This document shows positions 1-29,751 of a stretch of DNA of 64,000 bases, one piece after another. Location of the stretch: assembly GCA_048537945.1 (NCBI GenBank), contig CM108484.1, positions 8,995,785-9,059,784 on the forward strand. Direction: 5' to 3'. The position numbers and the translations under genes were made by a program. The notes beneath the pieces are model-generated. The model saw only the letters and a program-made list of their open reading frames with translations. It was not told the origin of the DNA and did not search any database. The stretch comes from Mnemiopsis leidyi (Eukaryota). Within the stretch, counting starts at the first letter, position 1, and the number at the start of each line of letters is the position of its first letter.

Positions 1-827
1 TGCTGGGTCTTCTCACTTACCGTGTCCATTGGGGGCAAGGTTTGATGACGCGGCTGAGGAGGTGCCTGAAGAGCGATCAGTTCAATTTATCCAATATTTA
101 TGCCTGTCTCAACTCCCTTGCTCAATCATTGAGAGTGAGGCATCAAATGTTTGAAACTCTTTTTGTAATTAGCACAAATTTGAAGTATTGAGAGCAAAGT
201 GTAGTATACTGTATGGCAATTAGGAGCTTTAGCTTGCGGGTGTCCAGAGAACAGTTTACGGTTAAGTTCTTAGCGCAATACCAGTTATCATAGTCCAATG
301 CTCGTATAAATGTGGGTTTACGCAAAATGCTGACACGGTAGTGGTCTCATAATAATTTACGTCTTTGAAACATAATCTTTATGCTGCTTCCAAACATAAA
401 CCTAAAGTTTCAATAAGTTTGCAGAAATATAGTTTCATTAAGTTGGAAGAAAAATGTCGGTACCTTCTTTACATCTTCTCTAGGGAGGTTGGAGTAGTCG
501 TTGGAGTAGGATGGGCGGTTGTTTGCGGAGCTGGTTCTAGGGACCACGCTGTTGCGAGAAGGTGGAGGAGGGTGGGTGGCGACATTATCGTTAATGCTGC
601 TCACACTTCCACTCTGCGGGTTTGATAAGATGATTATCTTATTTAAATTCAACAGATTTTGCCAGTTCACCGGACAGACTGATCTTAATTTAGTAGCCAT
701 ATATAGCAATACCTGAGCTTGAAACAGCTATTTATGCAAAATATATTGATCTTGAAGAGTTGTGAGGCAAAGGTTGTGAGACCTAGGTCTAAATTCTAGC
801 CAGGCTTTCAAAATCACCCCTTACGGC

Positions 828-1070
828 TTACAGTACATAATAAGCACATTGCAAAATGCAAAGCGACTTGATCCCGGTCACTGTACAAATAGAAACTCTA
901 ACCGAGGAATGAGGAAGATCGTAATCGTATGTCTTGTTTTGCGAGAGCATGGTCTGAAGTCTGCCCATCAGTTCCCGGTTCTGATTCTCCAGAAAAGTGT
1001 TCCTCTGTTCCAAGTTGTTGATTCGAAGTTGCAATGCGCTGTTCTGCTCCTTTAGGTGCGATATAACACG
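828..1070 (-). CDS. Tentative terminal coding exon of a leucine-zipper protein (TSC22-box-like?), ending ...RVISHLKEQNSALQLRINNLEQRNTFLENQNRELMGRLQ... then stop
   Basis: Minus-strand ORF with heptad leucines (L at 7-residue spacing). The acceptor ctttcag precedes the exon. The junction with the upstream exon gives ...YIDNKTIMIAKVDSQQ|RVISHLKEQ..., which resembles the TSC22 box (AIDNKIEQAMDLVKSHL...). Confidence 0.3.
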   Translation of the reverse strand, partial: RVISHLKEQNSALQLRINNLEQRNTFLENQNRELMGRLQTMLSQNKTYDYDLPHSSVRVSICTVTGIKSLCILQCAYYVL

Positions 1071-1188
1071 CTGAAAGTTTATCAAAACTTAGAATGGTGT
1101 AGATTACAATATTTTTGATGAAAAGTGCAGACTCTTGACAGCGGCTTGTCGCAACACGACAAGGCGCTACAAAAATTACACACAATAC

Positions 1189-1372
1189 CTGTTGAGAGTC
1201 GACTTTTGCAATCATAATGGTCTTGTTATCAATGTAATCGTCTCTCTCTGGAACCTGGTCGTAGACGGGCGAGGAGTGTCCCTCCTCCGTGTCCTGGAGC
1301 AGTCCCTCGTCGTACACCGGCTCGTTGTCGCTGTACTCGCTCGGCACTTCGCAGTAGGACGGTTCGTCGTCA
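1189..1372 (-). CDS. Upstream coding exon of the same gene (acidic region PSEYSDNEPVYDEGLLQDTEEGHSSPVYDQVPERDDYIDNKTIMIAKVDSQQ)
   Basis: The open frame ends at donor CAACAG|GTATTG and is frame-compatible with the 828-1070 exon. The 5' boundary is approximate. Confidence 0.3.
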
Positions 1373-3125
1373 TCTGGGAAAACGTCTGGTTATGTTACTG
1401 TGAAAATAAGGTGGGGGAGACATTAAGCAATGATGCGATGCAAGGTAGAGGGTATCAAGAGACATTTACAGGATAGTGGAAGATTTGAATAAAAAGATTT
1501 GCTGAAAAACTGGGGATTTCTAAATACAAGTACGAGTAATAAAGAGAGAAGTAATCTACGTTCTAGAACCCCAAACAACCTGGGATCAGTCCTAGAGTGA
1601 CAGCTAGTGTAGGGTTTATAGAAAGATCGGAGTAGTCACTATTGATCTCACACTCTCTACCGCTCCTTGGCTCACTTTCTAACTCTCCCTCCTCCTCAAG
1701 GACAGCGATCCCCTCCTGGTCAGAATCCTTACGGCGCTTAGTGCAGCCACATAGAAATGAAACCATACACAGTGTACACTGAACAAAACTCAGAAAAGGA
1801 GGGTTTACGATTTCAATACGCAAAGTCACACTGTGAAGAATTGTTATCATATATCATGTATCTTATCTCTCATGACTGCCAGCACCACAGCGCTCTACTC
1901 AGAATCCAGATTAATGCAGGCACCAGGCATTGACGGAAATTAGAACTTATGTCACGTTCGGGGCAACGTTGAAAAATTGCCCTTGTCCTATAACTCTACA
2001 TTCTGCGCCGCAAGATTTCTAGATATACTTTAGGTAATGTCTATACGAATATGATTTGAAATTTAACAGACATGATCGTTATGCACAATAAAGCATATCA
2101 ATCTGCTTAGGCCCCGCAGCAATGATAGAGGAGGGGCAGTGGGTCGCTATAGTAACTATTTATAAAAACCTCTTGTATATGTGTAGGTGACCTCTGGTAT
2201 AAGTTAGCACAGCGCGAATCTTTAAGAATTTTTCGACAAAAAGCTTGCTTGTAGTAGGATGTAAGCTTTTTATAAGTACAAGAAAACTAACATGATCCAT
2301 AGCTGACGTTAGTTGCGGGCCGAGAAATTTGCTCCCTCCGCTTGCCCTCCTCAAGGATGTGAGCGATGAGGATTGCGAAATCTTTAGCGCTGAGCGTCCC
2401 CAACTTTTGTCGACCCTGTCGCAAAAGGTATGTGTAAAATAGATCACCGAATAGTTGATACCGCATCATTTGTATCCTTGAGTCTTGTAATGAAACAAAT
2501 TAATCGACATCTTCTCAAAAGAAGGATTCATTAAAGATCTCTGCATTATAGATGGAGGAGAAGAAGACGATTAATTCAGATAATAAAACGTTGAGAATTC
2601 TGTCGAGGTTGTCTATAGGTTGTGATCAATGAGAAATGACATACTTAACATTGTTACTCTAATATTGAATTAAAATTTAATTTGAAGTTTAGGTTTGAGG
2701 AAGCTTCGATATGAACCAGAAAATTACCTGATTCCTCAACGAGCTGAAGGTGGGATTTGTTGGAAGGAAGCGAACGTCTAGGCCATTGTTGTTTTTGCCA
2801 GCTTTCCACACTGACAAGGGCATTAAAATACATATTCATGTGTTTAGTAAACGATTAAAGGTCAAAGGTGCAAAATAAATAACATTTTCTATGTGTCCTG
2901 TTGTTGGTGGTCAGAAGAGAAACACACAGATAATAAGGGCTTGAAATCTTCGTTTAGTTACATCATAAGAGCCTCAAATTATTTATTAATTAGTAGTAAT
3001 TGTTGAAAGTATTAAAATATATCCTTGTACTCTAAGCAATGCACAGACAATGAGTTAAATTATCTTCACAGCCTTGGGACAAAATGAAAAAAGTCCACGA
3101 CTTAAAAGTACAAAAATTCAACTAC

Positions 3126-3198
3126 CTTGTTCGGTTTCACGTCGGTCTACTTCATCGAAAATATCGGCAGCAAGTTCCTCAAACGCTTGGTTGTCAAG
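3126..3198 (-). CDS. Tentative internal exon encoding LDNQAFEELAADIFDEVDRRETEQ, a Spa2/GIT SHD-like motif
   Basis: Bounded by acceptor tttcag| and donor CAAG|GTAGTT. The DIFDEVDRRE motif resembles the Spa2-homology-domain repeat. Other exons of this gene were not found. Confidence 0.2.
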
Positions 3199-3406
3199 CT
3201 GAAACGGTAAAATTGTCATTCAACTTAAATCAGATAAGCGCCAGGCGCCTTGTTTCTGCTTCAGTTTGCGAATCGATAAGGAGTTGTTATCGTGTTTGGG
3301 TGGTAAACCTATTTCAGATCAACATTACAAGAAAATTTGTTTCCCAGAGCGCTTGCAACAAGTGATTATGTATGAAAATGAAAATATTACTGTAGTTATT
3401 GTGTCG

Positions 3407-3596
3407 TAATTATGTCAGGTTACCTGACTCAGGTAGTAATAATGTCAGGTTACCTGACTTCGGTAGTAATAATGTCAGGTTAACTGACTCAGGTAGTAAT
3501 AATGTCAGGTTAACTGACTCAGGTAGTAATAATGTCAGGTTAACCGACTCAGGTAGTAATAATGTCAGGTTAACTGACTCAGGTAGTAATAATGTC
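3407..3596. repeat. Minisatellite, 30-bp unit gtcaggttacctgactcaggtagtaataat in about 6.5 copies; each unit contains the 15-bp palindrome gtcaggtTAcctgac
   Basis: Direct tandem periodicity is visible in the sequence. ORF 3399-3614 is an artefact of the repeat. Confidence 0.9.
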
Positions 3597-4244
3597 GTGA
3601 TCTCCCCCTGTTAAGATTATTTCCGAAAGTCAGGGGATCCACTCTCCATTCTGTATTGTTATCAAAAGCAATTCCCACTTACCATTTTGAGCTTGTTTTG
3701 CGCTTCGATCACGGAAGGTCCCCTGAAAATTACAACTTGGTGAGAATTTAAGTTTTCATACAGAGGATATCATGGATGTTTGCCGTTAGCACTCGTCAAA
3801 ATTGAATTAATTATTTAACCATATATTTCACGATGTCAGTTTAACTTTCCGAGATCTATTCTTGCTTAAAAGTAATTATTACTATTTTTTCTAGCTACCT
3901 CAAGTCGTCTTGCTTTTAATTAATTTTGTTTTGGATAAATGATTGTTCAAGCTTACAGATTTAGTTTTGGATCCTAAAAGAGAGTTAATACCTCTTATTT
4001 TTAAAGCCATCATTAATGTGGTTTTAGCTATGCCAACATTACCAATTACTGTCAAAATGATAATACATCGATCTTGGTAAGTAAAGCAAACGTAAAAAAT
4101 TAAGATTTTCCGTCGTACATAAAAGATACGAAATCAAAAAATTTATCAGCACGGAAACTGCTTCTTCATAATGATCAAACAAAAAAAACAAACAAAATGT
4201 GACTCGAGAATTTCCAAAATACAAAACTGAGTCCACACAGCTCA

Positions 4245-6362
4245 TCAGTGCAAGGATCTCCCAACTGCAATGTCTGAAACAAGTTTCTCCGCCTCAAGCA
4301 GTACATTCAACATCTTGCTACTTGCTTTGCGTTTTCTGGTTATCTTATCAGATTCCTGAACCAAGTCTGCTATCATCTCTTTTGTGTACAGAGACTGTAT
4401 CAGGAGACTGCTAAGGTGAGTTGATAGCTTTCTGACAAAGAATTTCATGACGACTTTAGGTATTGTATCAACGAGATGAGCTCGAACAATACAAAAGTAG
4501 TGTATAAGAAGTTTCTCCATCAACTCTGCTTCTTTGTTAGCTCTTTCTTCGCTCGAGGCGTCTTCCCCTCTCATGTATCTGGTCATCAGTTTCTCCAGGG
4601 CACTTTCCTTGGTTGTGGGCTGATGGTATGTATTGCTCAAGGCTATGCTGTTGGGATTCTGTTTTAGTTTTAGTTTCTCTTTTTCCTCGTCGTGCTCTGC
4701 GAAGAGAGCTGCTGCAACCTGATATCTTTCGATAAACTCCGGATGGTTGGTGTTGATGTAGGCCTTTTCAACCTCCAGATACTCGGCCAAGAACTCCTTA
4801 GCGTCACGAGATTGCTTCATAAGAAAATCTTTAGAAATATTGACCACCTCGCGTTCTAGCTTGGGAAACCTCATCATCACTTTGGCAGCAATCATATCGA
4901 TAGCCTCTGCGATACACTGGTGAGATTTTGAAATAGCATGTTCAGACGGCAAATCAAAGAGATCAAGCTGTTTCAAAATGAGTGTGTTGAACACTCCGTC
5001 AGGAATGAACAAGGCAGGTTGCACGCCGCTTGTTCCCCGGATGACCTCTTTGAGGTTCTTCAAGTTTTTGTCAGCAGGGATAGCTGATAGTGCACTGGTG
5101 CAGTCTCGCTGAAAGACGTTGAACAGTTCAGCCCCAGCAGATGTTTGTTCGGTGACCAGTTTCACTTCGTCTTCTGATTTTATAGATGCTTGAAGCTGGG
5201 TTGACATGCTCTTTTTCACTGGTTTCAGTTTCTTACCAGGCCTCGTGACATTGTAAACAAACTTTCCATCAATGGATTTAGCGATACTATCAGTAAATTT
5301 AGACAAAAGTAGGATCATGGTTTGGTTAGGATCCGTTGGCTCCTCCCCTAAATCTTTTAGGATATCCCGGTGATATGCCTGTTGAACGGATATTTTGTCA
5401 GCTAGAATAGGTAAACACTTCTTCAAATGACTTATGAGGATATCACATAACTGGGTTGTGAGGTACTCAGTGCCCATTCTGTCGGCAAATCCGGGATAGT
5501 TTGCAAGAAAGAAATCCTCTTCCAGTGCAATGATTTTCTCAATAGGTGTTTTTTCAGTCAGCTGTTTGTTGTTTCTGTTTATGACTCCAATGAGTCCTAG
5601 TTTGACGTCCACAGAAGATCCGTTCAAGACGGCGGTTGACTCTTCGTTGTTTTCCATAAGATCACACTTTGTTATGACGGCAATGGTGCGCGATCCAGTG
5701 GGGTCAACTTCTCTGGCCAGCTTTAGAGAGTCCGAGTTAGCGATGTCAACATTTCCAGCCGAGACCGCTAAAATTATACTGTTTTCCTTCACGATGTATG
5801 AGCGGACAAGCTTCTCTATCCGTTGGTCTATGTCCCTCGGTTGATCTCCAACTGGAATCTTGGTGAGACCTGGCAGGTCTACTAGCGTTAGAGACGGGAT
5901 TTTGGTGGAGTAAAGTTTAAGGTGGATAGGGTCATCAGATATTCCTTTATTGGAGCCACACTTCTTATTTGTGTCATCAATAATTTCTTTTTGAATCGAA
6001 TCCATGTTGGTGTAAATCATATCACCACGATGAAGAAATTGAGCCCAGGTTTCAAAACTTTGATCTGGAACTGAAAGCTTGGTAGGATTCTGTACCTTTT
6101 CAGCCCACGAATCGTGATTTGAGCCCCGAATTACTTTTTTGCAGGGAGCTTTTATCATCTGCAAAACAAGAGGTCTTCGGGTAACGATTCCCATTCCTCG
6201 GGGGAGAAAGTTTTGCTTGGCAATGTTTTCAAGAACAGAACTTTTGCCTGTAGATTGAGAACCCACGACTACAATCTGAGGAAGATCTATCTCTTTTGTA
6301 GAAACGCCAGCAGTAGTGAATACATCTTGAAGCCTGTTTAGCGTGGCCAGAAATCGGTCCAT
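4245..6362 (-). CDS. Dynamin-related GTPase, Drp1/DNM1L-like, 705 aa, intronless
   Basis: Single uninterrupted ORF. G1 P-loop GSQSTGKSS, G3 DLPGLTK and G4 TKCD motifs are present. There is collinear similarity to Drp1 (LPQIVVVG.QS.GKSSVLE, RRPLVLQ, IILAV..AN.D.ANSD.LK.AREVDP.G.RT..VITK.DLM) and a C-terminal GED-like region (MIADLVQESDKITRKRKASSKMLNVLLEAEKLV). The start ATG is in context aaagtATGG. Confidence 0.85.
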   Translation of the reverse strand: MDRFLATLNRLQDVFTTAGVSTKEIDLPQIVVVGSQSTGKSSVLENIAKQNFLPRGMGIVTRRPLVLQMIKAPCKKVIRGSNHDSWAEKVQNPTKLSVPDQSFETWAQFLHRGDMIYTNMDSIQKEIIDDTNKKCGSNKGISDDPIHLKLYSTKIPSLTLVDLPGLTKIPVGDQPRDIDQRIEKLVRSYIVKENSIILAVSAGNVDIANSDSLKLAREVDPTGSRTIAVITKCDLMENNEESTAVLNGSSVDVKLGLIGVINRNNKQLTEKTPIEKIIALEEDFFLANYPGFADRMGTEYLTTQLCDILISHLKKCLPILADKISVQQAYHRDILKDLGEEPTDPNQTMILLLSKFTDSIAKSIDGKFVYNVTRPGKKLKPVKKSMSTQLQASIKSEDEVKLVTEQTSAGAELFNVFQRDCTSALSAIPADKNLKNLKEVIRGTSGVQPALFIPDGVFNTLILKQLDLFDLPSEHAISKSHQCIAEAIDMIAAKVMMRFPKLEREVVNISKDFLMKQSRDAKEFLAEYLEVEKAYINTNHPEFIERYQVAAALFAEHDEEKEKLKLKQNPNSIALSNTYHQPTTKESALEKLMTRYMRGEDASSEERANKEAELMEKLLIHYFCIVRAHLVDTIPKVVMKFFVRKLSTHLSSLLIQSLYTKEMIADLVQESDKITRKRKASSKMLNVLLEAEKLVSDIAVGRSLH

Positions 6363-6397
6363 ACTTTATATTACCCTTAAACGAACAGTATAGGTTA

Positions 6398-7022
6398 TTA
6401 AGGGGGAATTGTAAAAATTTAGCTAGACCAACGGACTGTACAGTAACCTAAAGCACCCTAATGGGCATCAAATGCACCACTTATTTTTTGATTCTAAGAT
6501 GACGCATTTTTAAAAATCGCAAAAAGAAAATTTTTCCGAGAATTTGGAAATTTATGGAAATTTACATTGCATGAATAAAACTCAGCCGTTTCTAATTGAA
6601 TCATGCTGAAAATTTGCACGAATTTTATTTATACCTTTGTTAAGCAGCTGTAAAAATTTCACGAAAAACTAATAAAAGTTGACTCAATGGCACCTGTCCA
6701 AAGTTGCCAAGTCCCAAAAATTTCTTTTTTATGTTAACTAACTTTGAAAATTTGCACACGCTACTGTGAAGTGTCAAGCACCTTGAAACTTTGCATACAG
6801 GTAGAAGACAGCGATAGAAAAATTTTGATGCTATGTAAAGTCTGTTTCCAAGGAAAGGGGAAAGATTTATGGACACTTCAAATAAAAGTAGCAATTTATC
6901 TGCCAAATTTCAACTTGAAGACAAAAAAATGTTAGAGCCACCCTTGAGTTGTCTAAATGCCAGATATAAGGTCACTCTTTACGAACATACTTTATCCGAC
7001 CCGGGTGTATTGGTTTTGGGCT
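6398..7022. repeat. Left arm of a large inverted repeat (foldback structure)
   Basis: This arm is the reverse complement of 7441-8078 with a few indels. ORFs 6640-6906(-) and 7550-7837(+) encode near-identical peptides, which is a symptom of the inverted repeat and not of genes. Confidence 0.9.
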
Positions 7023-7440
7023 TAAAATATGATATCAGATACATTTAAACTCTACCATATTTTGTCACTCTTGGACAACTATTGTTCTCTAGCGCATACA
7101 TCTTTCATTTTAGACTATTCTAGACCTCGGCAAACGTATTTTTTGGTAGAAATTAGCTAAGGAGGTCTCTTTCACAACAATACAAAGATAAACATTTTCT
7201 TACTCAAAAGAAAAATCTTTTGCAAGGGTCCCCCCTTGTGTTCAAAATCGAGAATTTTTAAGAAAAACTCATTAGTCACAAAGATTGTTATGACACACTT
7301 TCTTAGACTATTTTTAAACATAGAATTCAAATATGACCATGAAAATTGTTCAAAATTTTCAGAAAAGGCAAAACAAAGAAAAATATACATAAATCACACA
7401 AAGTGTTGTTATGGTAAACATAAAATAGTGTTCGATTTAC

Positions 7441-8078
7441 AGCCCAAAACCAATACACCCGGGTCGGATAAAGTATGTTTGTGAAAAGTGACCTTATATC
7501 TGGCATTTAGACAACTCAAGGGTGGCTCTTACAATTTTTTGTCTTCAAGTTGAAATTTGGCAAAAAAATGCTACTTTTATTTCAAGTGTCCATAAATCTT
7601 TCCCCTTTCCTTGGAAACAGACTTTTCATAGCATCAAAATTTTTCTATTGCTGTCCTCTACCTGTGTGCAAAGTTTCAAGGTGCTTGACACTTCACAGTA
7701 GCATGTGCAAATTTTCAAAGTTAGTTAACATAAAAAAGAAATTTTTGGGACTTGGCAACTTTGGACGGGTGCCATTGAGTCAACTTTTATCAGTTTTTCG
7801 TGAAATTTTAACAGCTGCTTTACAAAGGTATAAATAAAATTCGTGCAAATTTTCAGCATGATTCAACTAGAAACGGCTGAGTTTTATTCATGCAATGTAA
7901 TTTTCCAAAAATTTCCAAATGCTCGGAAAAATTTTCTTTTTGCGATTTTTAAAAATGCGTCATCTTAGAATCAAAAAATAAGTGGTGCATTTGATGCCCA
8001 TTAGGGTGCTTTAGGTTACTGTACAGTCCGTTGGTCTAGCTTCCACAAACCCCTGTTTGCTACAATTCCCCCCTTAAG
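7441..8078. repeat. Right arm of the inverted repeat; the arms are separated by a 418-bp unique spacer (7023-7440)
   Basis: See the left arm. The termini are ttaagggggaattg on the left and caattccccccttaa on the right. Confidence 0.9.
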
Positions 8079-8599
8079 CCTTGTAGCAATAAAATTATGT
8101 GAAAAATCGCAGATAATATTCAATAATTGTATTTTTCTATAGAAAGTATAATTCAAAAGGCATCCAAACGAGAATCTGATTCAAATGGTAGCATACGTAA
8201 AAAATTTCCCCTAAAACGTATCACCGTCAATCGGGCAAGCTCGAAGTCAACGAATATTGATAAGGAATAGAATAATTCTGAAGAACTCAGAAGAAATCTG
8301 GAATAGAAGTAAGTTTCACTGAATTTACACGGTCCTAACTCCTACCTTTTCTAATCTCTTATCTTGAATCCAGAAATTTGCGCTCGACAACTTAGGAGGC
8401 TAGTATATCCTAAATTCTAGACTTAAATTAAAGATGAAATTTCATATTTGGCATATATGTAATATGTAAACAGTATCACGCCACTTACAGTATGACGTCT
8501 AAGGGGGAAATGTTAAATTTTTCAAGTCGATTCGACTGTCCAGGAATTTAATGCACCTTGATAATCGGAATCAATTGCATGTCGTATATTCTTATTTAA

Positions 8600-8930
8600 A
8601 GTCGACGTATTTTAAGAAAATCGGACCATGGTAACTTTTCCGTTAAATTAAAAAATTTCGGAAATTAATATCGTGAACATGGCCGTTTCACATTTAAATA
8701 TGCTGAAAATTGAAACGAATTTGATTGATATTTTTGTTAGGCCCCGTAAGAATTTTTAGTAAACCAAAAATTTCCTAATTCTCGTATAAATTTTCATTTT
8801 GTGATTTTCTAAAATACGTCCCCAAAGAATAAAAAAGACGAGAAATTGATGCTCATAAGGGTGCTTTAAATTTTTGTACAGTCAAATCAACTAGCTGCCA
8901 CAAACCCCTGTTTTCTACATTTCTACTCAG
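8600..8930. repeat. Degenerate third copy of the outer part of the inverted-repeat arm, in the same orientation as the right arm
   Basis: Shared segments such as ...gggtgctttaaatttttgtacagtc...gccacaaacccctgtt... match 7990-8060 at about 70 percent. Confidence 0.5.
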
Positions 8931-10017
8931 ATGTCCCAAACACAATTCACATCAAAACCATTATCATTGGTACGAACTACGAATGCCAAACTTCCTAAAT
9001 CAGTCCTTTGCACAGGATTTTTCACGATTCAATAATCATATATAGTTAGTCACAGTTGTCAGTAGCAAAACTTTGTTGACGTCACTTATATGGCGCTCCA
9101 ATGATCTATAGCAAAGCTGAACAGCTGCTTTTTAATGTACATCTGCCAAATATTTGCAAGACAATGTGAAGTGAAACTGAAATATTCAAATCTATTTAAA
9201 AGTATGCAATTGAGGCTTGAGTGCTCGGCTATTGGCTAATCGCTTGAAATTGAGAATGATTTTCATTTACTGTAGTTGACAGAATTCGAGATTCACAAAA
9301 GGTCAACAGCCAATAACCTAACCCTAATTCAAACATGAAAACAGATGATTATAATTGTTTCTTCCACCAGTCCGTACAGAAACCTATGGCCTATTAAAAT
9401 GATAGCAACCTTGCTATCATTGTGGTACCTTCAATCCAATCCTTCTTTGTCCATGACTGTAAGTAGATACATTTTGAACTATTCCAGCTAACCGGACTGC
9501 TTGAGCAGCTGCGGATAGTAAGTAAAAGTTTCAATAATTCAAGGCTACACGAGACGCACTGAAACCGTAAGTGGGAAATTGATGAAAGTAAGTGTGCACA
9601 AAATAAATCAGGTACAACGTGCGCTAGTCTTGTTCCTAATTTTAATCTCTCCCTGTTAGTTGCCTGGGGAGCTCAGTCTTAGTTGCCTCAGTCTTTGTCC
9701 CCTCTCTACGGAGGAGACCGTGGAGAGAGCCGCGCAACGCCCGGTAACCTGTTTACGACTTCAAACGTAATAAAGAGGCTAGTAAAGTACGATCGATCGA
9801 GAGCTGTGCACATACAGCTCAACGTTTCGTCGCGCGCGTCCAGTCGCGCAAACTGTCACTGATTGGCGATTTGATTTTAAATATTATGTAGTCTCCGCTG
9901 CTTCCTACTCCGATAGATGTATTTCTCAAATGCAGAAGGCCTTTCGGCAAAGTTGTTCCATTGAATACCCTTAAATTGGCCGTTGCAATGGAAAACATAG
10001 AATTTTAAACTCGAAAT

Positions 10018-10835
10018 TGGAAGTGTTCCCACCGTACGATTTTCTTGAAAATTTCAGAGTATGTTCAATTTCAGAGTATGTCCAATTTGGAACAATGGAA
10101 CAAGAAAGTCCAACTCCGTGGTTTTTAAGCTATATCTCGAAAACTAAAAAATAGGCCCCCATTTTTTTCGACGAATTCTTGTAGTATTGATCGATAGGAA
10201 CATTTTGAGAAAGTGTAAAGGAAATTGTACAGTCGGAACACCTCCAAAAAGGCCTTGTTCCATGGTCAGAGTACATATTTCGAGATATTTCCTTGTGTTT
10301 GAGGTTGTATCTCGAAAACTAACACATAGACCCCCCAATTTTTTTACATTTTCTGATAGTTTAGATCAAAAGGAACATACTGTGAAAGTTTAAAGAAAAT
10401 CGCACGGTGGGAACACCTCCAAAAAGGCCTTGTTCCATTGTCAGGGTACATATTTCGAGATATTTCCTTGTGTTTGAGGTTGTATCTCGAAAACTAACAC
10501 ATAGACCCCCAAATTTTTTTACATTTCCTGATAGTTTAGATCAAAAGGAACATACTGTGAAAGTTTAAAGAAAATCGCACGGTGGAAACACCTCCAAAAA
10601 GGCCTTGTTCCATGGTCAGAGTACTTATTTCGAAATATTTCCTTGTGTTTGAGGTTGTATCTCGAAAACTAACACATAGACCCCCTAATTTTTTTACATT
10701 TTCTAATAGTTTAGATCAAAAGGAACATACTGTGAAAGTTTAAAGAAAATCGCACGGTGGGAACACCTCCAAAAAGGCCTTGTTCCAAAATTTTGGCAAT
10801 TTGGAACAATGGAACAAGAAAGTCCAACTCCTCAA
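10018..10835. repeat. Satellite block 1: ~180-bp tandem repeat, about 3.7 copies, subfamily A. It is preceded by an inverted partial unit and bounded by the motif caatttggaacaatggaacaagaaagtccaactcc
   Basis: The 178-180-bp periodicity (e.g. 10240 to 10418) was read directly. The boundary motif occurs at 10083-10117 and 10797-10833. Confidence 0.85.
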
Positions 10836-13345: not shown

Positions 13346-13469
13346 ACTCAGATGATTCCACAAAATTGTATATACTTCTGGTACCTCAGAGCGTCTCCCT
13401 GGAATTTCTTTCATTGATTATGATATAGGTACTTGGTGTATAAGCGGCAATTTCACAGATTAGCCATTA

Positions 13470-14827: not shown

Positions 14828-15885
14828 GATGTCCTTTATCACTTATCAGAGCAAATCTTTCCGAAAATTTCATAAGTTCCAAAATGACATTTCAGACAAC
14901 TAAAAGATAATAAATTGCAAGGTCATGTGACATGGCTTCGCTTTAACCACCCTGTTCTAATTTTAGAACTTATGGCAGCTTCCCGGAGGAAGGTCGTGAC
15001 AGTCGACAGTGAGTTTTAAATTCGAGCACTTAACCTATCACAAAGCACAAAGCCGAAATAGTGTAATTAACTTACATCGGCTGTTTCATTACAATTACAC
15101 GTTTAAAATGTGACTTGTAAGAGTAGAAAACTTACCGTCTTTCCATCTCAGGTATGATAATGTGCTGACCGTTTATGTGATCTGAGGGGAGCGTCAGATC
15201 AGATATGAGGTGGTCCGAGAGTGACTGGTGAAAGCTTGACGCTCCTGTTACTTAGCAGGCTTCACCAGGAACATTGATTGACAATTTGAACGTGTACAAA
15301 TCTTGTAGTATGATGACATCTTAAATAGTTTTGAGATAAGTTTTACCACGGGGTGGTATTGTTCGGATATTTAGATAATAATGCTGGACTAAGTATAAGT
15401 CGGTAAAACAAAATGTCTGTATTTCTGTCTTGCCATACATAACTGTATACTTTTAAAGACTTACCTGTACAATGTGTGTACAATGCTTTGTATACCGAGA
15501 ACAGTGTACTGTGTATAATACACATAATATTGTTTAGTGTGAACAGTGTACATTGTACATTGTACTTATATGTACTATACACATTGAAGGTGACTTACCA
15601 GGCTGTTTGCTGTTTATAAAGTATACGAGTCTGTCTGTAAGCTCGTACTGCAGTGACAGTATCCTGTTTGCTGTCTGATAAAACCCACACTTCCTGGGGA
15701 TATCATTTCATGAGCTCAGCTTGGAATTTGAAACATTGTTCAGAATCTAGATCGATAGTCAACTCCGTTGTATACTTTAGTCAACGACATTTCTTCAACG
15801 TCTAGGAATGTTTGGTAAGTTCTCAGAAAAATGTTCCGAACTGTTAACGGGACAATGCTATTTTAGGATATTTTAAATATTTCAC

Positions 15886-17685
15886 GTTTGTGTAGAAGCT
15901 TACAACTACCTAACAGTTTGTGTAGCAGCTTACAACTACCTAACAGTTTGTGTAGCTTACAACTACCCAACAGTTTGTGTAGCAGCTTACAACTACCTAA
16001 CAGTTTGTGTAGCAGCTTACAACTACCTAACAGTCTGTGTAGCAGCTTACAACTACCTAACAGTTTGTGTAGCAGCTTACAACTACCTAACAGTTTGTGT
16101 AGCAGCTTACAACTACCTAACAGTTTGTGTAGCAGCTTACAACTACCTAACAGTTTGTGTAGCAGCTTACAACTATCTAACAGTTTGTGTAGCAGCTTAC
16201 AACTACCTAACAGTTTGTGTAGCAGCTTACAACTACCTAACAGTCTGTGTAGCAGCTTACAACTATCTAACAGTTTGTGTAGCAGCTTACAACTACCTAA
16301 CAGTTTGTGTAGCAGCTTACAACTACCTAACAGTTTGTGTAGAAGCTTACAACAACTTAAAAGTTTGTGTAGCAGCTTACAAATACCTAACAGTTTGTGT
16401 AGCAGCTTACAACTACCTAACAGTTTGTGTAGCAGCTTACAACTACCTAACAGTTTGTGTAGCAGCTTACAACTACCTAACAGTTTGTGTAGCAGCTTAC
16501 AACCACCAAACAGTTTGTGTAGCAGCTTACAACTACCTAACAGTTTGTGTAGCAGCTTACAACTACCTAACAGTTTGTGTAGCAGCTTACAACTACCTAA
16601 CAGTTTGTGTAGCAGCTTACAACTACCTAACAGTTTGTGTAGCAGCTTACAACTACCTAACAGTTTGTGTAGCAGCTTACAACTACCTGACAGTTTGTGT
16701 AGCAGCTTACAACTACCTGACAGTTTGTGTAGCAGCTTACAACTACCTAACAGTTTGTGTAGCAGCTTACAACTACCTAACAGTTTGTGTAGCAGCTTAC
16801 AACTACCTAACAGTTTGTGTAGCAGCTTACAACTACCTAACAGTTTGTGTAGCAGCTTACAACTACCTAACAGTTTGTGTAGCAGCTTACAACTAGCTAA
16901 CAGTTTGTGTAGCAGCTTACAACTACCTAACAGTTTGTGTAGCAGCTTACAACTACCTAACAGTTTGTGTAGCAGCTTACAACTACCTAACAGTTTGTGT
17001 AGCAGCTAACAACTACCTAACAGTTTGTGTAGCAGCTTACAACTACCTAACAGTTTGTGTAGCAGCTTACAACTACCTAACAGTTTGTGTAGTAGCTTAC
17101 AACTACCTAACAGTTTGTGTAGCAGCTTACAACTACCTAACAGTCTGTGTAGCAGCTTACAACTACCTAACAGTTTGTGTAGCAGCTTACAACTACCTAA
17201 CAGTTTGTGTAGCAGCTTACAACTACCTAACAGTTTGTGTAGCAGCTTACAACTACCTAACAGTTTGTGTAGCAGCTTACAACTACCTAACAGTTTGTGT
17301 AGCAGCTTACAACTACCTAACAGTTTGTGTAGCAGCTTACAACTATCTAACAGTTTGTGTAGCAGCTTACAACTACCTAACAGTTTGTGTAGCAGCTTAC
17401 AACTACCTAACAGTTTGTGTAGCAGCTTACAACTACCTAACAGTTTGTGTAGCAGCTTACAACTACCTAACAGTTTGTGTAGCAGCTTACAACTACCTAA
17501 CAGTTTGTGTAGCAGCTTACAACTACCTAACAGTTTGTGTAGCAGCTTACAACTACCTAACAGTTTGTGTAGCAGCTTACAGCTACCTAACAGTTTGTGT
17601 AGCAGCTTACAACTACCTAACAGTTTGTGTAGCAGCTTACAACTACCTAACAGTTTGTGTAGCAGATTACAACTACCTAACAGTT
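15886..17685. repeat. Minisatellite, 30-bp unit cagtttgtgtagcagcttacaactacctaa in about 60 highly homogeneous copies (1.8 kb)
   Basis: Direct tandem periodicity. The large ORFs on both strands (15888-17009, 17006-17725, 17025-17711) translate to a 10-aa periodic peptide and are artefacts. Confidence 0.95.
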
Positions 17686-19542
17686 GCAAGACTCCGGGAG
17701 CGGATGTGTAGGTTTGTGCCTGCATATATGTCGAAAGAGCTCATATAAGACATGAATTAGCCGAGTATTTCATTTAAGTGACATCAGTAATTCCCTTAAT
17801 TCATGGCCATCATTTGATAGGGAAGATAAAATTGTAATGTATATAAGTACATGCAGTTTACACCGCACACATACAGCATATTCACATTCGAATTTACTTC
17901 GCCTTAAACTTTAGGCTATAGTTACAGTTTACAGTTACAAATCAAAATGGAAACAGCGAAGCTGTTTTGCTGGAATTGCTATCCGTTCTAATTACGATGA
18001 ATTAAATCACAATTACACTCACAATTACAATTACACTCACAATTGCACTCACAGGAAATATTTCGAAAAGTATTATGACCAAGTGTGTCCATCAACAGGA
18101 TGGCAGGTGAAGAAAAATATTCCACATTGCCGGAGTGTGCACGTGCTAATGACGTCAATGCGATGCGGATAGTCTGTACTTACACAGGTCAAACATACTG
18201 ATGTAGACCACACAGTGCTTGTAGCTTACATCCTACTCGCTAACTCCATATTGACAGTTGGAGTTCACAGTCAAGTCTTTAGAAAAAATTCGCGTCGTAT
18301 TCTAATGGCGAATATGCAGAAAATATATGAAATTTGAGGACAAAATCTGAACGAATTTTGCGAATCACTGTCTTTGCAGCAAGTACAAACGGTCATATCT
18401 TCAGATACCAAGCATTCAGTAAGTTCACAAAAATGCGAGCCAATCAATAAGAAAGGTTTTAAGAATAGCGTTGCGCAAATAACAAAAGTAGGATTAATTT
18501 GGTTCACGATTGAGGGGGCCGGATTTATCTATGTAAAAATTAAGATTTTGACACTTAAAACATAAAACTAAAAGCAAGAATGTAATTTTATCAAATAATT
18601 TTTAATGTATATTGAAGATCTGCACGCTAATGCATGATGAAGAGGTAAGTGCATGCTTACCTGGCAACGTCATAAGGCGTGTGGTTATCCTTGTTTATAC
18701 GGTTAGGATTAGCACCATAGATAGAAAGCAGTTCGTATTGCAGTAGCTGATCGTGAGCTAGGAATTGGCAAATATTAGACAAGCTTCCGATTTTCCAAAC
18801 ATCTTTGTTTCATTATCAATCCCCTATATAGTCTACTGAGCAGTATGAGGAACTTAAAAACAAATTTATAGTACTAGTACAGGAATAGCTTGTTAGTAAA
18901 GATGGCGGGAACCTGCTGCAAGGTGTAATGGTGTGCTCTGGTCACTGTTACTGCAGTTCACATCAGCTCCCATAACCAACAGTCTCAGTGTAGTCTCAGC
19001 TGAACTTTGTGTTACTGACAGTAGCAGTTGCTGAGAATAGAAAGTACATAACAATATAAGTAACAATATAAGAACTTAACAACATAACATAAGAACTTAA
19101 TTCACAATTAAGACAGACTGAGCAGTTGAGTTGATTGAAACAACGTGTTGAGGAGTTGAAACGTTTTCAAATATCAATCATCAGTAACATCCTTAAATAT
19201 CAACGGTTAAGATCATGATAAAGTGAGCTTAAACAATAGACTAAAAGGATAAAAGGGGGAGTTAAACTGAAAATGCCCAAAACTAGCAAATTCACAAAAG
19301 GCCTAAGCACTCGGGTATGGAGAGTATACTAGTCCCAACATACGGGGGAGAGAGGAAACTAAACAAAAAACTAAGAAAAGCGTTGCGCCCCAAGACAGCA
19401 GGTCCATCAAGTATTGTCCAGTAGAGGAATACCAAACGGATCCACTGTGTTGAGGCCCAACGGTTGTAGAGTTTTATACCTCTGAATAAACCGGTGTTCG
19501 TCTATTTCAAGGGTTTTTGGGCTGCTATTGCAAAAACAAGTA

Positions 19543-20152
19543 CAGTAAACCCTCGATTTACCGGGCATCTCGGAGGAAAGGGTTAAGGCCCGGTAAATAG
19601 AGGGGCCCGGTAAATAGAATTTGATCAAAATTTGGCCTAATTTTAGCCAAAAATAGTAACTTAAGTTATTGATAGCTATATGTAAACGTCATCCTGATCG
19701 AATTTCTTGATAAAAGTACTCCTTGAGGGATTTAGAACTGTGAGAATGGATCCAACGTTCTCAATTACATCTTTAATTAGTAATCTCAAGATCGATCGTT
19801 TTATTGTGTATGTATGCCGTGGTTACGTCACATATATCAACATGAGCTGTCAGCTTGCATGTTAAGGCTCTGTCACGGTGTCACATGGCGAAGAGATACC
19901 AATACCAAAATGTCACCTGTGCCGGTGCCTGCTATTGAAGCTCATATCCCATGGCCTTGTCTGAATCGATCTACGTATCATGCCATCGGCGTATGCGAGT
20001 GTCATGCTAATATACGATCGTGTGCTGGACTAGTGAAAAAAAGACGGGACAATTTTTGTGTGAATAGATTGAACAATTTCGGGGAAAAGGAAGGAGGCCC
20101 GGTAAATAGAGGGACCCGGTAAATAGAGGCCCGGTAAATCGAGGGTTTACTG
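19543..20152. mobile_element. Non-autonomous Tc1/mariner-type element (MITE, 610 bp) with 26-bp terminal inverted repeats (TIRs) CAGTAAACCCTCGATTTACCGGGC, flanked by TA target-site duplications
   Basis: The left end is TA|CAGTAAACCC.... The right end is ...GGGTTTACTG|TA. Subterminal CCCGGTAAATAGAGG repeats are present at both ends. There is no transposase ORF. Confidence 0.7.
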
Positions 20153-22226
20153 TATTTTGAAACATTGATTAAAATCTTCCCGACTTTCCATATTATGGCT
20201 CATTATAAGTACCATTGGACGAAATGTTCGCCGAAAATTTGCAAGCCTTACCTTTTTGCAATTGCACATTATAATGGTTTCACTTCTCATTTTAGTGCGT
20301 CTGACTATATGATATTATTATATGATCAGCGGATAATTTTGTTGATGAATTAGAATATAATGAACTATTTAAAGTTGTAAATATTACATTATTAAGAGAG
20401 TCGACATTTACTTCATCCATCTTCTGACAGAATCGTCCATCCTTGTATTTTGCCAGAATGAAACTCTCTTTGGTTGGCCTGGAAATCATAGCAGTTAGAT
20501 CAAAATATTTCTAAAGATTAAAAAAGTTAATGCCAAATTCTCGATCTTGGCCTATTTCTTCTAACCTTATCATTTTGAAACCTAATGATTATGCTTATCA
20601 TGCCTTTTCAGTATCATTGACATACCTTAGCTTATCAGTTGGGCTAGGTTTTGGTGGATAAGATGAACTTTTAGAGCTTGTGTTATACAGCTCATGTTCC
20701 CAGATGTTATTTGCTCCGTTTTGCACGAGATTGTGCAACATCTGAAATAAAATGAACTCTTTTCGCCACAGTTTCTCACAAAAAGACGTATCAACCAATG
20801 AAACACATTTAACGTTGATAGCAAAATGCATTTTAATCAGTATCATACTTGGAGACGAGGTGGGGCCCAATTCCCATGCTGGAGAGATGCGATTTCTGAG
20901 ATGTGACGTCCTAAAGTACGGTGTATCTGACAACAATCACCACACAACAACACACCTCTGTTTACACTTGCCCATGTTGGATCTGGCAAGAAATAAATAT
21001 GTTTTATTTATCAAAATCAGTAAAAAACGCTAAGAATCATGAAATCATTTTATTCAGCACATATTCCTTAGTCATTCCTTAGTGTTAGTGTACAAACACG
21101 ATTTAATCTTAAAATGATGCTCGAATAATAATAAGAAGGTGAAATCTCTTACCAGGAGCATTGCAATCAGAGCATTTCACATGTTTAAATGCAGTAGCAA
21201 CATATGTTTGCTGCTTGAATGGCATAGCACTTCACCATAAATTCCAAACCTAGAGAATGTATCTGGAATTGTGGCTGAATAAAAATTAAAAGGGTTGAAA
21301 GAAAAAAGATCTGGAACTTCAGATGAGCGGTAATTGTTTTCATTTGTGTCCCATATCCACAAAGTTGGCTTACCAAATAGATAACTGGGGGAAATTCAGG
21401 AAAAATGAGGAAATTTTTGCATCTGAGAGGAAATTTTTTGGTTTGAACTTCCAGAGACGGACTGACAATTGCAGTCAATTAATTTTTTTTAATTTCTTCT
21501 CAAGTTTAAAACTTTTTAAGATATTTTGTGTTTTATTTAAAATAAAGTTCATATTTTATTGACTTTTCATTTGAAGGGAAGAAATCATTGAAATGTTTTA
21601 AATGTTTTTAATGGTCAATGGTAAGAAGAAATTTGATCATTACCATCAAAATTTGATCATAATTTTAGATATTTGACCACATTCATGTTGCTTTTTTGAA
21701 GTGGTCATGGTCCCAATGTTTTATAATTTGACCTAGGCCGAATGGTCAAAAAATCATGGTCATTTTAGCCCCCCCCCCCGGCCCCCCTAATCTCTATCCC
21801 CAAAATTGAAAGTTGAATTTTCATTATCATTAATACACATGATTTCATTTTCTCTTCAAACTAATTATCTACATTTTAATATTCCAATAGAACTATTAAT
21901 TGTTAAGATCAAATCCATAATATTTTCAACACTACTATTATACAAATAATTTGAGTGTGAACATGGTCATTGATAAAATGATTGAAATATTATGGTAATC
22001 TCGCCTTTCACTAGCTACAAGATGTATGTGACAACTCTATAAGTCCTATTAATCATAAAAAAATCCATGAGTGATCAAAATTGTTATTCTCATTAGTCAG
22101 CAGAGGTGGTAATAGACTCTGTTGTCAGATCGTTTGTGACCCTGGACCCCCATTGGGGCACTACCCCATGGACTACAAATCTATGTGAGTAGTTCATTTG
22201 CTAGTTATTGTAATTTTTTCCCATCA

Positions 22227-29735: not shown

Positions 29736-29751
29736 CTACATGGACAGTTAC

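What the first reader, a model, noticed from the sequence alone, without database searches (positions are those of the whole stretch)
4245..6362. Intronless, strongly diverged Drp1-like dynamin in a locus where neighbouring genes are intron-rich
The 705-aa ORF keeps every dynamin G-domain motif plus a GED. It is clearly Drp1-type and not classical dynamin, because PH and PRD domains are absent. It is single-exon, whereas PWP2 has 16 exons and Rab3 has 6 in the same window. It also carries lineage-specific insertions, for example the K-rich segment KKLKPVKKSMSTQLQASIKSEDEVKLVTEQ. Canonical Drp1 is highly conserved across metazoa. An intronless divergent copy therefore suggests a retroposed paralogue that has acquired a new function, rather than the housekeeping mitochondrial-fission gene. 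Its promoter region abuts a 1.7-kb foldback inverted repeat starting 36 bp upstream of the ATG.
Basis: partly seen in the sequence, partly recalled or inferred. Interest (0 to 1): 0.6.

Follow-up and report, generated by a model that had tools for sequence, protein, structure and literature searches.

The report
Ctenophore-specific intronless Drp1 paralogue, nested
This is a working extra copy of the mitochondrial-fission GTPase Drp1 in the comb jelly Mnemiopsis; it belongs to a comb-jelly-only family of intronless Drp1 copies and sits inside an intron of another gene, which makes it a modestly interesting gene-family expansion and not a recent retrocopy.

Summary
Window 4245-6362 (-) is an uninterrupted 705-aa ORF with Dynamin_N, Dynamin_M and GED, no PH or PRD, and intact GTPase motifs. 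Its best sequence and fold match is human DNM1L. The 1.7-kb inverted repeat starts 36 bp upstream of the ATG.

The window is Mnemiopsis leidyi (GenBank KAL5256597.1, "hypothetical protein").

- It is a paralogue. A more canonical DNM1L (G009771) exists elsewhere in the genome, along with at least three further Drp1-type genes.
- Intronlessness is family-wide. Every ctenophore paralogue I could check is a single ORF, and the canonical ctenophore DNM1L has only one intron, against at least 17 exons in Nematostella.
- It is old and constrained. A syntenic orthologue exists (dS 0.9, dN/dS 0.04). No poly(A) remnant is left.

- The gene is nested, on the same strand, in an intron of a GIT-type ArfGAP gene. 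The orthologous locus has the same arrangement.
- The inverted repeat is a lineage-specific transposon insertion, absent from the orthologous locus.
- The K-rich insert expands stalk loop L1N^S, and the partner loop has R403 changed to Q. Assembly interface 3 is therefore remodelled.

Function beyond "GTP-driven membrane remodeller distinct from canonical Drp1" is inferred, not shown.

The parts
4245..6362 (-). Complete single-exon CDS (705 aa plus stop) of a Drp1-type dynamin-related GTPase; identical to GenBank KAL5256597.1 (ACHWQZ_G011744, Mnemiopsis leidyi)
5667..6275 (-). GTPase domain core (Pfam Dynamin_N, aa 30-232) with G1 GSQSTGKSS, G2 T61, G3 DLPG and G4 TKCD
   Evidence: omega 0.00-0.03
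6051..6110 (-). 20-aa G-domain insert SWAEKVQNPTKLSVPDQSFE (aa 85-104), at the position of the Drp1 80-loop/A-insert (position from my own knowledge). Found only in the window gene, its orthologue (L001) and the L002 paralogue.
   Evidence: omega 0.18-0.39 for the wider aa 73-106 block; in frame and conserved at amino-acid level
4719..5633 (-). Middle/stalk region (Pfam Dynamin_M, aa 244-548)
5151..5243 (-). K-rich insert (about aa 374-404), which expands stalk loop L1N^S. Predicted as a beta-hairpin (strands 370-375 and 402-407) bearing a low-confidence loop. Present with variable sequence in the P0001 to P0021 clades; absent from canonical DNM1L and from the 601-aa clade.
   Evidence: (omega 0.22-0.85; present in cDNA L006); role of the loop from PMC6743466
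5016..5027 (-). L2^S motif GVQP (aa 446-449), in place of GPRP 401-404 of human Drp1; R403 is replaced by Q
   Evidence: alignment; PMC6743466 for the L2^S loop and the R403C disease allele; the GPRP 401-404 numbering is from my own knowledge
4272..4538 (-). GED (aa 609-697), forming the last stalk helix and the BSE helix
   Evidence: omega 0.016
6376..6383 (-). Splice-acceptor-like tttaag|GG, 13 nt upstream of the ATG; conserved as ttttag|GG in the orthologous locus. Candidate spliced-leader or 5'UTR acceptor (inferred).
   Evidence: ctenophore SL biology from PMC8527503
6398..8064 (.). 1.67-kb foldback inverted repeat (TE-like), with partial copies at about 8534-8883. It is inserted between the ORF and its ancestral upstream DNA and is absent from orthologous locus L001.
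15597..21225 (-). Upstream exons of the host gene: GIT-type ArfGAP, encoding ArfGap plus ankyrin repeats. A further 'exon' at 9426-9512 in the old gene model has no counterpart in L001 and may be spurious.
3..3201 (-). Downstream exons of the same host GIT gene (GIT_SHD, coiled coil, GIT1_C); the gene runs off the window end

Best explanation
The ORF is a functional member of a ctenophore-specific subfamily of intronless dynamin-related GTPases. The subfamily arose by duplication from the ctenophore DNM1L (Drp1) lineage.

Shown:
- Mnemiopsis keeps a slower-evolving canonical DNM1L (G009771) plus at least four derived paralogues: G011744 (this window), G018495, G013585 and G010167. They lie on contigs of four different lengths (G009771 and G010167 share one length).
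- This copy lies in the same orientation inside an intron of a GIT-type ArfGAP gene. The arrangement is kept in a related species at dS of about 0.8-0.9.
- The gene is under strong purifying selection.
- All catalytic GTPase residues, the BSE and the four-helix stalk are retained.
- The two loops that form stalk interface 3 and contact the MiD receptor in human Drp1 are remodelled. L1N^S carries a roughly 30-residue K-rich insert, and L2^S has R403 changed to Q.

Inferred:
- The protein still dimerises and hydrolyses GTP to remodel membranes.
- It polymerises with its own geometry, and probably does not co-assemble with canonical Drp1 or use its adaptors.
- The basic loop at the stalk tip contributes to membrane or partner binding. 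That would give it a separate target membrane.
- Its mRNA is made independently of the GIT mRNA, probably through the acceptor 13 nt before the ATG (spliced-leader trans-splicing). This would also explain why a 1.7-kb transposon 36 bp upstream is tolerated.
- The founding copy, and/or this dispersed copy, may have arisen by retroposition. The parent has only one intron, so this cannot be proven.
For: Identity and fold.

Organism and paralogue census.

Canonical gene is Drp1-type: (593 bits to DNM1L, against 485 for CmDnm1 and 458 for dynamin-1).

Phylogeny: (NJ, 172 sequences, 619 columns, 200 bootstraps).
- All 25 ctenophore-type sequences are monophyletic at 100%.
- The canonical ctenophore DNM1L (P0028, 99.8% identical to P0266) is their sister at 98%.

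Intron structure: single ORFs; canonical gene has one GT-AG intron of 203 or 717 nt; Nematostella has at least 17 exons.

Orthology and selection:
- the locus is collinear on both flanks.
- dS 0.92, omega 0.042.
- host GIT exons give dS 0.79.
- core domains have omega 0.00-0.07 and the inserts 0.18-0.85.
- canonical gene 96.8% identical against window gene 92.5% for the same species pair.

Nesting.

Expression of the family. L006 is a cDNA-like contig with an adapter, a 13-nt leader starting TGAG, the full ORF, a 3'UTR and poly(A). Searches give a second such contig.

Interface biology: PMC6743466.

Nested genes and spliced leaders in ctenophores: PMC8527503.
Against: - There is no transcript evidence for this gene itself. 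The cDNA evidence comes from a 74-78% identical relative in another species.
- The spliced-leader inference rests on an acceptor-like motif and on a 4-nt TGAG at the 5' ends of two contigs, which is weak.
- The tree is neighbour-joining only. Deep nodes are unresolved: 31% support for joining metazoan Drp1.
- Functional divergence is inferred from two loops. The K-rich loop evolves nearly neutrally, so it may be a tolerated disordered insertion and not a functional element.
- No retrocopy hallmark (poly(A) tract) survives, and target-site duplications were not systematically searched for.
- An older Mnemiopsis gene model fused this ORF in frame with GIT exons.
Confidence: 0.78

Rival explanations
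1. It is the single housekeeping Drp1 of Mnemiopsis, merely fast-evolving and stripped of introns by lineage-wide intron loss.
For: Intron loss is indeed lineage-wide in ctenophore Drp1 genes. Even the canonical ctenophore DNM1L is only 45-47% identical to other animals' Drp1.
Against: A distinctly more canonical DNM1L exists in the same genome and in Bolinopsis. It scores 593 bits to human DNM1L, against 401 for the window protein. It retains a normal-length L1N^S loop and the R of the L2^S motif (GTRP). It also evolves more slowly: 96.8% against 92.5% identity for the same species pair.
Confidence: 0.03
2. It is a recent, possibly dead, processed retrocopy of an intron-rich Drp1 parent.
For: The CDS is intronless. 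The location is dispersed, inside another gene's intron. LINE-type reverse-transcriptase and RNase H fragments occur in the window.
Against: The ORF is intact in two species with dS 0.92 and omega 0.042. There is no poly(A) tract after the stop codon. The parent lineage has only one intron. The subfamily includes a cydippid (Pleurobrachia) sequence, P0017, so it is old. A family member is expressed as a polyadenylated mRNA.
Confidence: 0.04
3. The ORF is not an independent gene but a giant internal exon of the GIT gene, giving a GIT-dynamin fusion protein as in the old 1267-aa gene model.
For: It has the same strand as GIT. The old model UPI0004EA9227 (P0275) joins GIT exons to ORF residues of about 34-698.
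Against: The ORF has its own conserved Met-start N-terminus (MDRFLATLN...) and its own stop after the conserved C-terminus, like all its unlinked paralogues. The paralogous loci read here show no GIT exons within 10 kb. A relative's cDNA is monocistronic with a 13-nt leader and poly(A). The current GenBank annotation separates the two genes. GIT architecture is complete without the ORF.
Confidence: 0.05
4. The derived subfamily has taken on an Mx-like or otherwise non-fission role, for example innate immunity. This would explain repeated duplication, dispersal and a rapidly changing surface loop.
For: The expansion is lineage-specific, with extra unlinked copies in close relatives (L002). The stalk-tip loop evolves almost neutrally (omega up to 0.85). 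The oligomerisation interface is remodelled.
Against: Core domains are under very strong constraint (omega 0.00-0.07). No site-level positive selection was tested. Sequence similarity to Mx is far lower than to Drp1 (169 against 401 bits). There are no expression or induction data.
Confidence: 0.1

Closest known systems
Drp1 / DNM1L (human; PDB 4BEJ, 5WP9, 8T1H) and its ctenophore orthologue (Mnemiopsis KAL5259437.1; Bolinopsis XP_063678953.1)
   Same: G domain-BSE-stalk-GED architecture with no PH or PRD. All GTPase motifs are present. It is the best sequence match (E 8e-119) and the best fold match (TM 0.91 to 4BEJ_B). In the tree the window clade is sister to ctenophore DNM1L (98% bootstrap).
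   Different: - Only about 37% identical to bird Drp1 and 41% to the ctenophore's own DNM1L.
- The L1N^S loop carries about 30 extra residues in a K-rich insert.
- L2^S reads GVQP in place of GPRP (R403 to Q).
- There is an extra 20-aa G-domain insert.
- The B-insert is short (about 50 aa) and carries a subfamily-specific conserved motif (KLMTRYxxGEDxSSEERANKEAEL).
- It has no intron at all, and it is nested in a GIT intron.
Lineage-specific dynamin-related protein expansions (plant DRP1-DRP5, ciliate Drps, vertebrate Mx). The comparison is from general knowledge, not tested here.
   Same: Duplication of a DRP scaffold, with changes concentrated in stalk-tip and insert regions that set membrane or partner specificity.
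   Different: This one is restricted to ctenophores, every member checked is intronless, and I found no description of it in the searchable literature.
Parallel nested intronic genes of ctenophores (Schultz et al. 2021, PMC8527503)
   Same: The gene lies wholly inside one intron of a host gene, on the same strand, and is flanked by a TE on one side. This matches the class reported for Hormiphora (2357 nested genes, many parallel to the host and TE-flanked).
   Different: Here the nesting is shown to be conserved between two species. The guest is a member of a multigene dynamin family.
Fungal Vps1 and classical dynamin-1
   Same: The GTPase-BSE part scores almost as well against Vps1 (295 bits) as against the Drp1 GTPase-BSE construct (301 bits). 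The overall stalk fold is shared with dynamin-1.
   Different: Against full-length chains Drp1 leads clearly (401 bits, against 317 for dynamin-1). There is no PH or PRD. The phylogeny places the gene with ctenophore DNM1L.

Membership tests
Dynamin superfamily large GTPase | G1 P-loop GxxxxGKS, G2 Thr, G3 DxxG and G4 T/NKxD motifs in a Dynamin_N domain | tested here: met
   Pfam Dynamin_N 3e-48. GSQSTGKSS, T61, DLPG and TKCD are present, and their key residues are invariant in a 54-sequence alignment.
Drp1/Dnm1-type dynamin-related protein | Architecture of G domain + middle/stalk + GED, without a PH domain or proline-rich domain | tested here: met
   Pfam finds Dynamin_N, Dynamin_M and GED only. 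The AF2 model matches 4BEJ_B at TM 0.91.
Drp1/Dnm1-type dynamin-related protein | Closer to Drp1 than to Vps1, classical dynamin, Mx or OPA1 | tested here: met
   PDB phmmer scores: DNM1L 401 bits, CmDnm1 334, dynamin-1 317, Mx 169, OPA1 79. In the NJ tree the clade is sister to ctenophore DNM1L at 98%. Deep placement among eukaryotic DRPs is unresolved (31%).
DNM1L orthologue (the housekeeping mitochondrial/peroxisomal fission gene) | Being the one-to-one orthologue, i.e. the closest relative of DNM1L in its genome | tested here: not met
   G009771 (P0266) in the same genome is closer: 593 bits to DNM1L against 401, and 45-47% identity to bird and cnidarian Drp1 against 37% to bird Drp1.
DNM1L orthologue (the housekeeping mitochondrial/peroxisomal fission gene) | Conserved 12-residue L1N^S loop and L2^S loop with R403 (interface 3 and MiD49 contact) | tested here: not met
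   L1N^S carries about 30 extra residues. GPRP is replaced by GVQP. Loop definitions are from PMC6743466. G362/G363-equivalent glycine G410 is retained.
DNM1L orthologue (the housekeeping mitochondrial/peroxisomal fission gene) | Mitochondrial or peroxisomal fission activity and recruitment by Mff, Fis1 or MiD adaptors | not testable with these tools
   Needs localisation, knock-down or rescue experiments.
Processed retrogene | Lacks the introns present in the parent gene | tested here: inconclusive
   The CDS is intronless, but the parent lineage (ctenophore DNM1L) has only one CDS intron. The contrast with the 17 or more exons of Nematostella applies to the whole ctenophore family.
Processed retrogene | Remnant of a 3' poly(A) tract and flanking target-site duplications | tested here: not met
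   There is no A-run in the 1 kb after the stop codon. Target-site duplications were not searched for systematically. At dS of about 0.8-0.9 since the species split, such marks would be expected to have decayed.
Processed retrogene | Located at a new locus unlinked to the parent | tested here: met
   The window gene is on a 20.87-Mb contig, inside a GIT intron. The canonical gene is on an 18.53-Mb contig. Other paralogues are on 15.61-Mb and 17.08-Mb contigs.
Parallel nested intronic gene | Whole gene inside a single intron of a host gene, on the same strand | tested here: met
   GIT exons encoding ArfGap+Ank lie upstream (21225-15597). Exons encoding GIT_SHD+GIT1_C lie downstream (3201-3). 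All are on the minus strand. The layout is the same in L001.
Classical dynamin | PH domain and C-terminal proline-rich domain | tested here: not met
   No Pfam PH hit, and the protein ends 8 residues after the GED.

The most novel reading that the evidence does not exclude
Ctenophores evolved their own multigene family of intronless Drp1-derived GTPases. In these proteins a re-engineered stalk interface 3 (expanded basic L1N^S loop, R403Q) insulates them from canonical Drp1 and directs them to a different membrane or role, possibly defence-related. Their expression from same-strand nested positions would depend on spliced-leader trans-splicing to release the guest mRNA from the host's pre-mRNA.
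Probability: 0.2. Interest if true: 0.55.

Novelty: new member of a known kind. Interest (0 to 1): 0.33.

Why it matters
Drp1 is usually a single, highly conserved gene in animals. A ctenophore-wide family of at least four extra, intronless, faster-evolving Drp1 copies is a natural experiment in how dynamin polymers are re-specified, because the oligomerisation and receptor interface has changed. It could point to organelle or membrane processes peculiar to ctenophores.

The locus is also a clean, conserved example of a same-strand nested gene in a genome with pervasive spliced-leader trans-splicing. That makes it useful for asking how host and guest transcripts are separated.

There is a practical point for annotation. 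An older Mnemiopsis model fused this gene with GIT, and RefSeq's Bolinopsis model for the orthologue looks partial.

None of this overturns current understanding. It is a lineage-specific gene-family expansion.

Tried and rejected
- Looking up the Mnemiopsis paralogues' own loci (P0001, P0008, P0031) with the look-up of encoding contigs failed, because they are not on record. I used ENA assemblies of related ctenophores instead.
- I first read P0003/L002 as the orthologue of the window gene and derived an "8x faster" rate. I rejected this. For the same species pair the canonical gene has dS 0.20 and L001-L002 has dS 0.81, and L002 is not syntenic. L002 is therefore an older unlinked paralogue. 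The clean comparison gives roughly 2.3x.
- I tested whether the two inserts are unspliced introns and rejected it. They are in frame and conserved at amino-acid level. The K-rich one is present in a cDNA.
- I could not homologise the single ctenophore DNM1L intron with a Nematostella intron, because it lies in the unalignable B-insert.
- A search for a Hormiphora-like spliced-leader gene in the window found none.
- Literature searches for ctenophore Drp1 or dynamin found nothing specific.
- No ML tree software was available. The NJ backbone is unresolved below the ctenophore clade.
- The prokaryote-oriented promoter and terminator scan was not used, because it does not apply to a eukaryotic locus.
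Full report
**1. Observation**

Window 4245-6362 on the minus strand is an uninterrupted ATG-to-stop ORF of 705 aa.
- Pfam finds Dynamin_N (3e-48), Dynamin_M (2e-52) and GED (2e-19), and nothing resembling a PH or proline-rich domain.
- Against all PDB sequences the best hit is human DNM1L/Drp1 (E 8e-119, 401 bits). It is ahead of red-algal Dnm1 (334), dynamin-1 (317), Mx (169) and OPA1 (79).
- G1 GSQSTGKSS, G2 GIVTRRP, G3 DLPG and G4 TKCD are present. Their key residues are invariant in a 54-sequence alignment.
- An AF2 model (mean pLDDT 81.5) superposes on nucleotide-free human Drp1 4BEJ_B with TM 0.91 and rmsd 3.6 A.
- The inverted repeat has arms 6421-7028 and 7435-8041 at 93-97% complementarity. 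A short extension reaches 6398 and 8064.
- A WD40+Utp12 (PWP2-type) gene is split into at least 13 ORF segments at 24978-36331.

**2. Organism and family**

The protein is 100% identical to GenBank KAL5256597.1, "hypothetical protein ACHWQZ_G011744" of the ctenophore Mnemiopsis leidyi. The same genome encodes several more Drp1-type proteins:

| Gene | Protein | Length | Identity to window protein |
|---|---|---|---|
| G018495 | P0008 | 687 aa | 71% |
| G013585 | P0278 | 678 aa | about 55% |
| G010167 | P0031 | 601 aa | 38% |
| G009771 | P0266 | 647 aa | 41% |

G009771 is the important one. Its Bolinopsis orthologue is named "dynamin-1-like protein" by RefSeq. It scores 593 bits to human DNM1L, against 485 for CmDnm1 and 458 for dynamin-1. 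It is 45-47% identical to chicken and Nematostella Drp1, whereas the window protein is 37% identical to the chicken protein. Nematostella and chicken Drp1 are 66% identical to each other. So the window gene is not the ctenophore's closest Drp1 orthologue. Even that orthologue is unusually diverged.

In a neighbour-joining tree (172 sequences, 619 trimmed columns, 200 bootstraps):
- all 25 ctenophore-type sequences form one clade (100%);
- the canonical ctenophore DNM1L is its sister (98%);
- the whole group joins metazoan Drp1 only weakly (31%).

Long-branch attraction would pull the fast clade away from the slow ctenophore DNM1L, not towards it, so I regard the sister relationship as credible. 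The clade includes a Pleurobrachia protein (P0017; I recognised the "sb|" identifier style from memory). If that assignment is right, the subfamily predates the lobate-cydippid split.

**3. Intronlessness is family-wide**

The unnamed relatives come from ENA long-read assemblies whose genes were called as plain ORFs. A full-length call in such an assembly means an uninterrupted gene.
- I read four such loci: P0002 (L001), P0003 (L002), P0007 (L003) and P0034 (L004). In each, the ORF length equals three times the protein length plus a stop codon.
- The canonical DNM1L appears in two such assemblies as a 536-aa ORF plus a separate GED ORF.
- Mapping P0266 onto these loci shows exactly two coding exons, separated by one GT-AG intron of 203 nt (L005) or 717 nt (L008), just before the GED.
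- Nematostella Drp1 spans 11.3 kb with at least 17 coding exons.

The massive intron loss therefore belongs to the ctenophore Drp1 lineage as a whole. The derived paralogues differ from their parent by a single intron.

**4. Age, orthology and selection**

L001 (sample ERZ25070731) is collinear with the window on both sides of the gene.
- The dynamin pair has dS 0.92, dN 0.039 and omega 0.042.
- The flanking host-gene exons give dS 0.79 and omega 0.016. The pair is therefore orthologous and the divergence is substantial.
- Per-region omega against L001 and L002 is 0.00-0.07 for the G domain, 0.01-0.07 for the main stalk and 0.02-0.07 for the GED.
- The G-domain insert has omega 0.18-0.39 and the K-rich insert 0.22-0.85.
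- For this species pair the canonical DNM1L is 96.8% identical and the window gene 92.5%, so the window gene changes about 2.3 times faster at the protein level.

I first treated P0003/L002 as an orthologue. However, the two ENA species are close (canonical DNM1L dS 0.20), while L001 against L002 gives dS 0.81, and L002 has no GIT exons nearby. L002 is therefore an additional, older, unlinked paralogue that shares the G-domain insert. The family is larger and more dynamic than the Mnemiopsis list suggests.

There is no poly(A) remnant after the stop codon.

**5. A nested gene**

An old Mnemiopsis model (UniParc UPI0004EA9227, P0275, 1267 aa) sits in the same 90% cluster.
- Mapping it onto the window shows that it fuses the ORF with multi-exon sequence on both sides, all on the minus strand.
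- The N-terminal part is ArfGap plus ankyrin repeats. The C-terminal part is GIT_SHD plus GIT1_C. These are the two halves of one GIT-type ArfGAP.
- The dynamin gene therefore lies inside the GIT intron between the ankyrin and SHD exons. That intron runs from 15597 (or 9426 if the doubtful exon is real) to 3201.
- L001 has the same layout: GIT exons at 1404-5194, the dynamin at 8819-10969, and GIT exons at 13064-17072.
- Schultz et al. 2021 report 2357 nested intronic genes in Hormiphora. Many are parallel to the host and flanked by TEs (PMC8527503). This locus is a typical member of that class.

A GIT-dynamin fusion protein is unlikely:
- The ORF has the family's conserved Met start and its own stop.
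- The unlinked paralogous loci read here have no GIT exons nearby.
- A relative's transcript is monocistronic.

**6. Expression and the upstream region**

Logan contig L006 (SRR26183979) is a cDNA of a family member that is 74-78% identical, depending on the alignment method. It consists of a TruSeq adapter remnant, TGAG, 9 nt, the ATG, the full 677-aa ORF, a 3'UTR of about 320 nt and poly(A). A second cDNA-like contig (L009) also carries TGAG within its first 9 nt.

Ctenophore spliced leaders end in AATTTGAG and are found on at least 56% of mRNAs (PMC8527503).

In the window an acceptor-like tttaag|GG lies 13 nt before the ATG. It is conserved as ttttag|GG in L001.

The 1.67-kb foldback element is absent from L001. 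There, about 114 nt correspond to window 6381-8150, and the ancestral upstream DNA resumes beyond 8064.

I infer that the mRNA 5' end is defined by splicing, probably trans-splicing, at this acceptor. That would explain both how a same-strand nested gene yields its own mRNA and why a transposon 36 bp upstream is tolerated. This is inference from weak sequence hints. I have no transcript data for this gene.

**7. How the protein probably works**

The catalytic G domain, the BSE helices and the four-helix stalk are intact and strongly constrained. GTP-dependent G-domain dimerisation and stalk-mediated assembly are therefore expected.

The distinctive changes cluster at one site:
- The K-rich segment interrupts the first stalk helix exactly at loop L1N^S. 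The model predicts strands 370-375 and 402-407 carrying a low-confidence loop.
- In human Drp1 this loop has 12 residues. It contacts MiD49 and the L2^S loop (402-409, including the disease residue R403) of the next molecule at stalk interface 3, at the stalk tip (PMC6743466).
- Here L1N^S is about 30 residues longer and basic.
- The L2^S motif GPRP reads GVQP. It is GIQP or GYQP in sister clades and GTRP in the canonical ctenophore protein.

I therefore propose that the subfamily polymerises through a remodelled interface 3. It would be insulated from canonical Drp1 and its adaptors, with the basic loop available for membrane or partner contact. The near-neutral evolution of the loop's sequence cautions that only its length or charge, if anything, is functional.

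**8. Verdict**

The reasoning from intronlessness to retroposition is not decisive, because the whole ctenophore Drp1 family is intron-poor. The copy is ancient, conserved and nested.

It is a new, apparently undescribed member of a lineage-specific subfamily of a well-known protein kind (searches found no literature). It is of moderate interest to people working on dynamins or ctenophore genomes, and it is not a surprise at the level of mechanism.

Noticed in passing
window 3-3201 and 15597-21225 (-): A GIT-type ArfGAP gene (ArfGap + Ank + GIT_SHD + GIT1_C) hosts the dynamin in one of its introns. An older Mnemiopsis gene model (UPI0004EA9227, 1267 aa) fused the two genes. An 'exon' at 9426-9512 in that model has no counterpart in the orthologous locus.
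   Followed up: yes
window 41384-41914 (-), next to 43713-45452 (-): A single-ORF Mss4/RABIF gene (Pfam Mss4 1.9e-28) lies about 2 kb from a multi-exon Rab3-like gene, so a Rab chaperone/GEF sits beside a Rab. It also shows that this locus is not uniformly intron-rich.
   Followed up: partly
window 3406-3596: A 30-nt minisatellite (6.4 copies, 95% match) whose unit contains a palindrome (GTCAGGTTAACTGAC). It lies in the GIT intron about 650 nt downstream of the dynamin stop codon.
   Followed up: no
window 10133-10787, 12039-13294 and 15886-17685: Two arrays of a 175-nt satellite and a 60-copy 30-nt array, all inside GIT introns.
   Followed up: no
window 29237-29732 and 29947-32129: A 17-nt array and a 78-copy 28-nt array inside an intron of the PWP2-type gene. 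They account for the GC-skew spike (0.40) at 30-32 kb.
   Followed up: partly
window 54150-54373: (AGG)n microsatellite, 74 copies. It gives long poly-R/G/E ORF artefacts in six-frame translation.
   Followed up: no
window about 49039-49557 (-), and scattered + strand ORF fragments in the 21.3-64 kb scan: A LINE-type RNase H/RT fragment, and mariner-like and hAT-dimerisation-like ORF fragments recognised by eye. Retroelement machinery is present in the neighbourhood.
   Followed up: no
L001 10986-11066: In the orthologous locus the last 81 nt of the dynamin CDS are tandemly duplicated immediately after the stop codon (81% identity to window 4245-4325).
   Followed up: no
L004 10001-11806 and 21329-21806: Two 601-aa G010167-type dynamin genes in opposite orientation about 9.5 kb apart, surrounded by LTR-retrotransposon ORFs (RVT, RNase H, integrase). 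This is a local duplication in a TE-rich region.
   Followed up: no
L002 (ERZ25071805 ctg2836) compared with L001: A second window-type gene shares the G-domain insert, but it is non-syntenic and has dS 0.81 between species whose canonical DNM1L differs by only dS 0.20. It is an extra, older paralogue for which I found no counterpart among the named Mnemiopsis proteins.
   Followed up: partly
L006 1-36 and L009 1-36: Both cDNA-like contigs of family members carry TGAG at their extreme 5' end, matching the last 4 nt of the ctenophore spliced leader (AATTTGAG). This is a weak hint of SL trans-splicing 9-27 nt upstream of the ATG.
   Followed up: partly
P0019 (Bolinopsis microptera LOC134823134): The RefSeq model for the Bolinopsis relative of the window gene is 570 aa, carries only a Dynamin_N hit and covers 42% of the query. 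It is probably a truncated or chimeric gene model.
   Followed up: no
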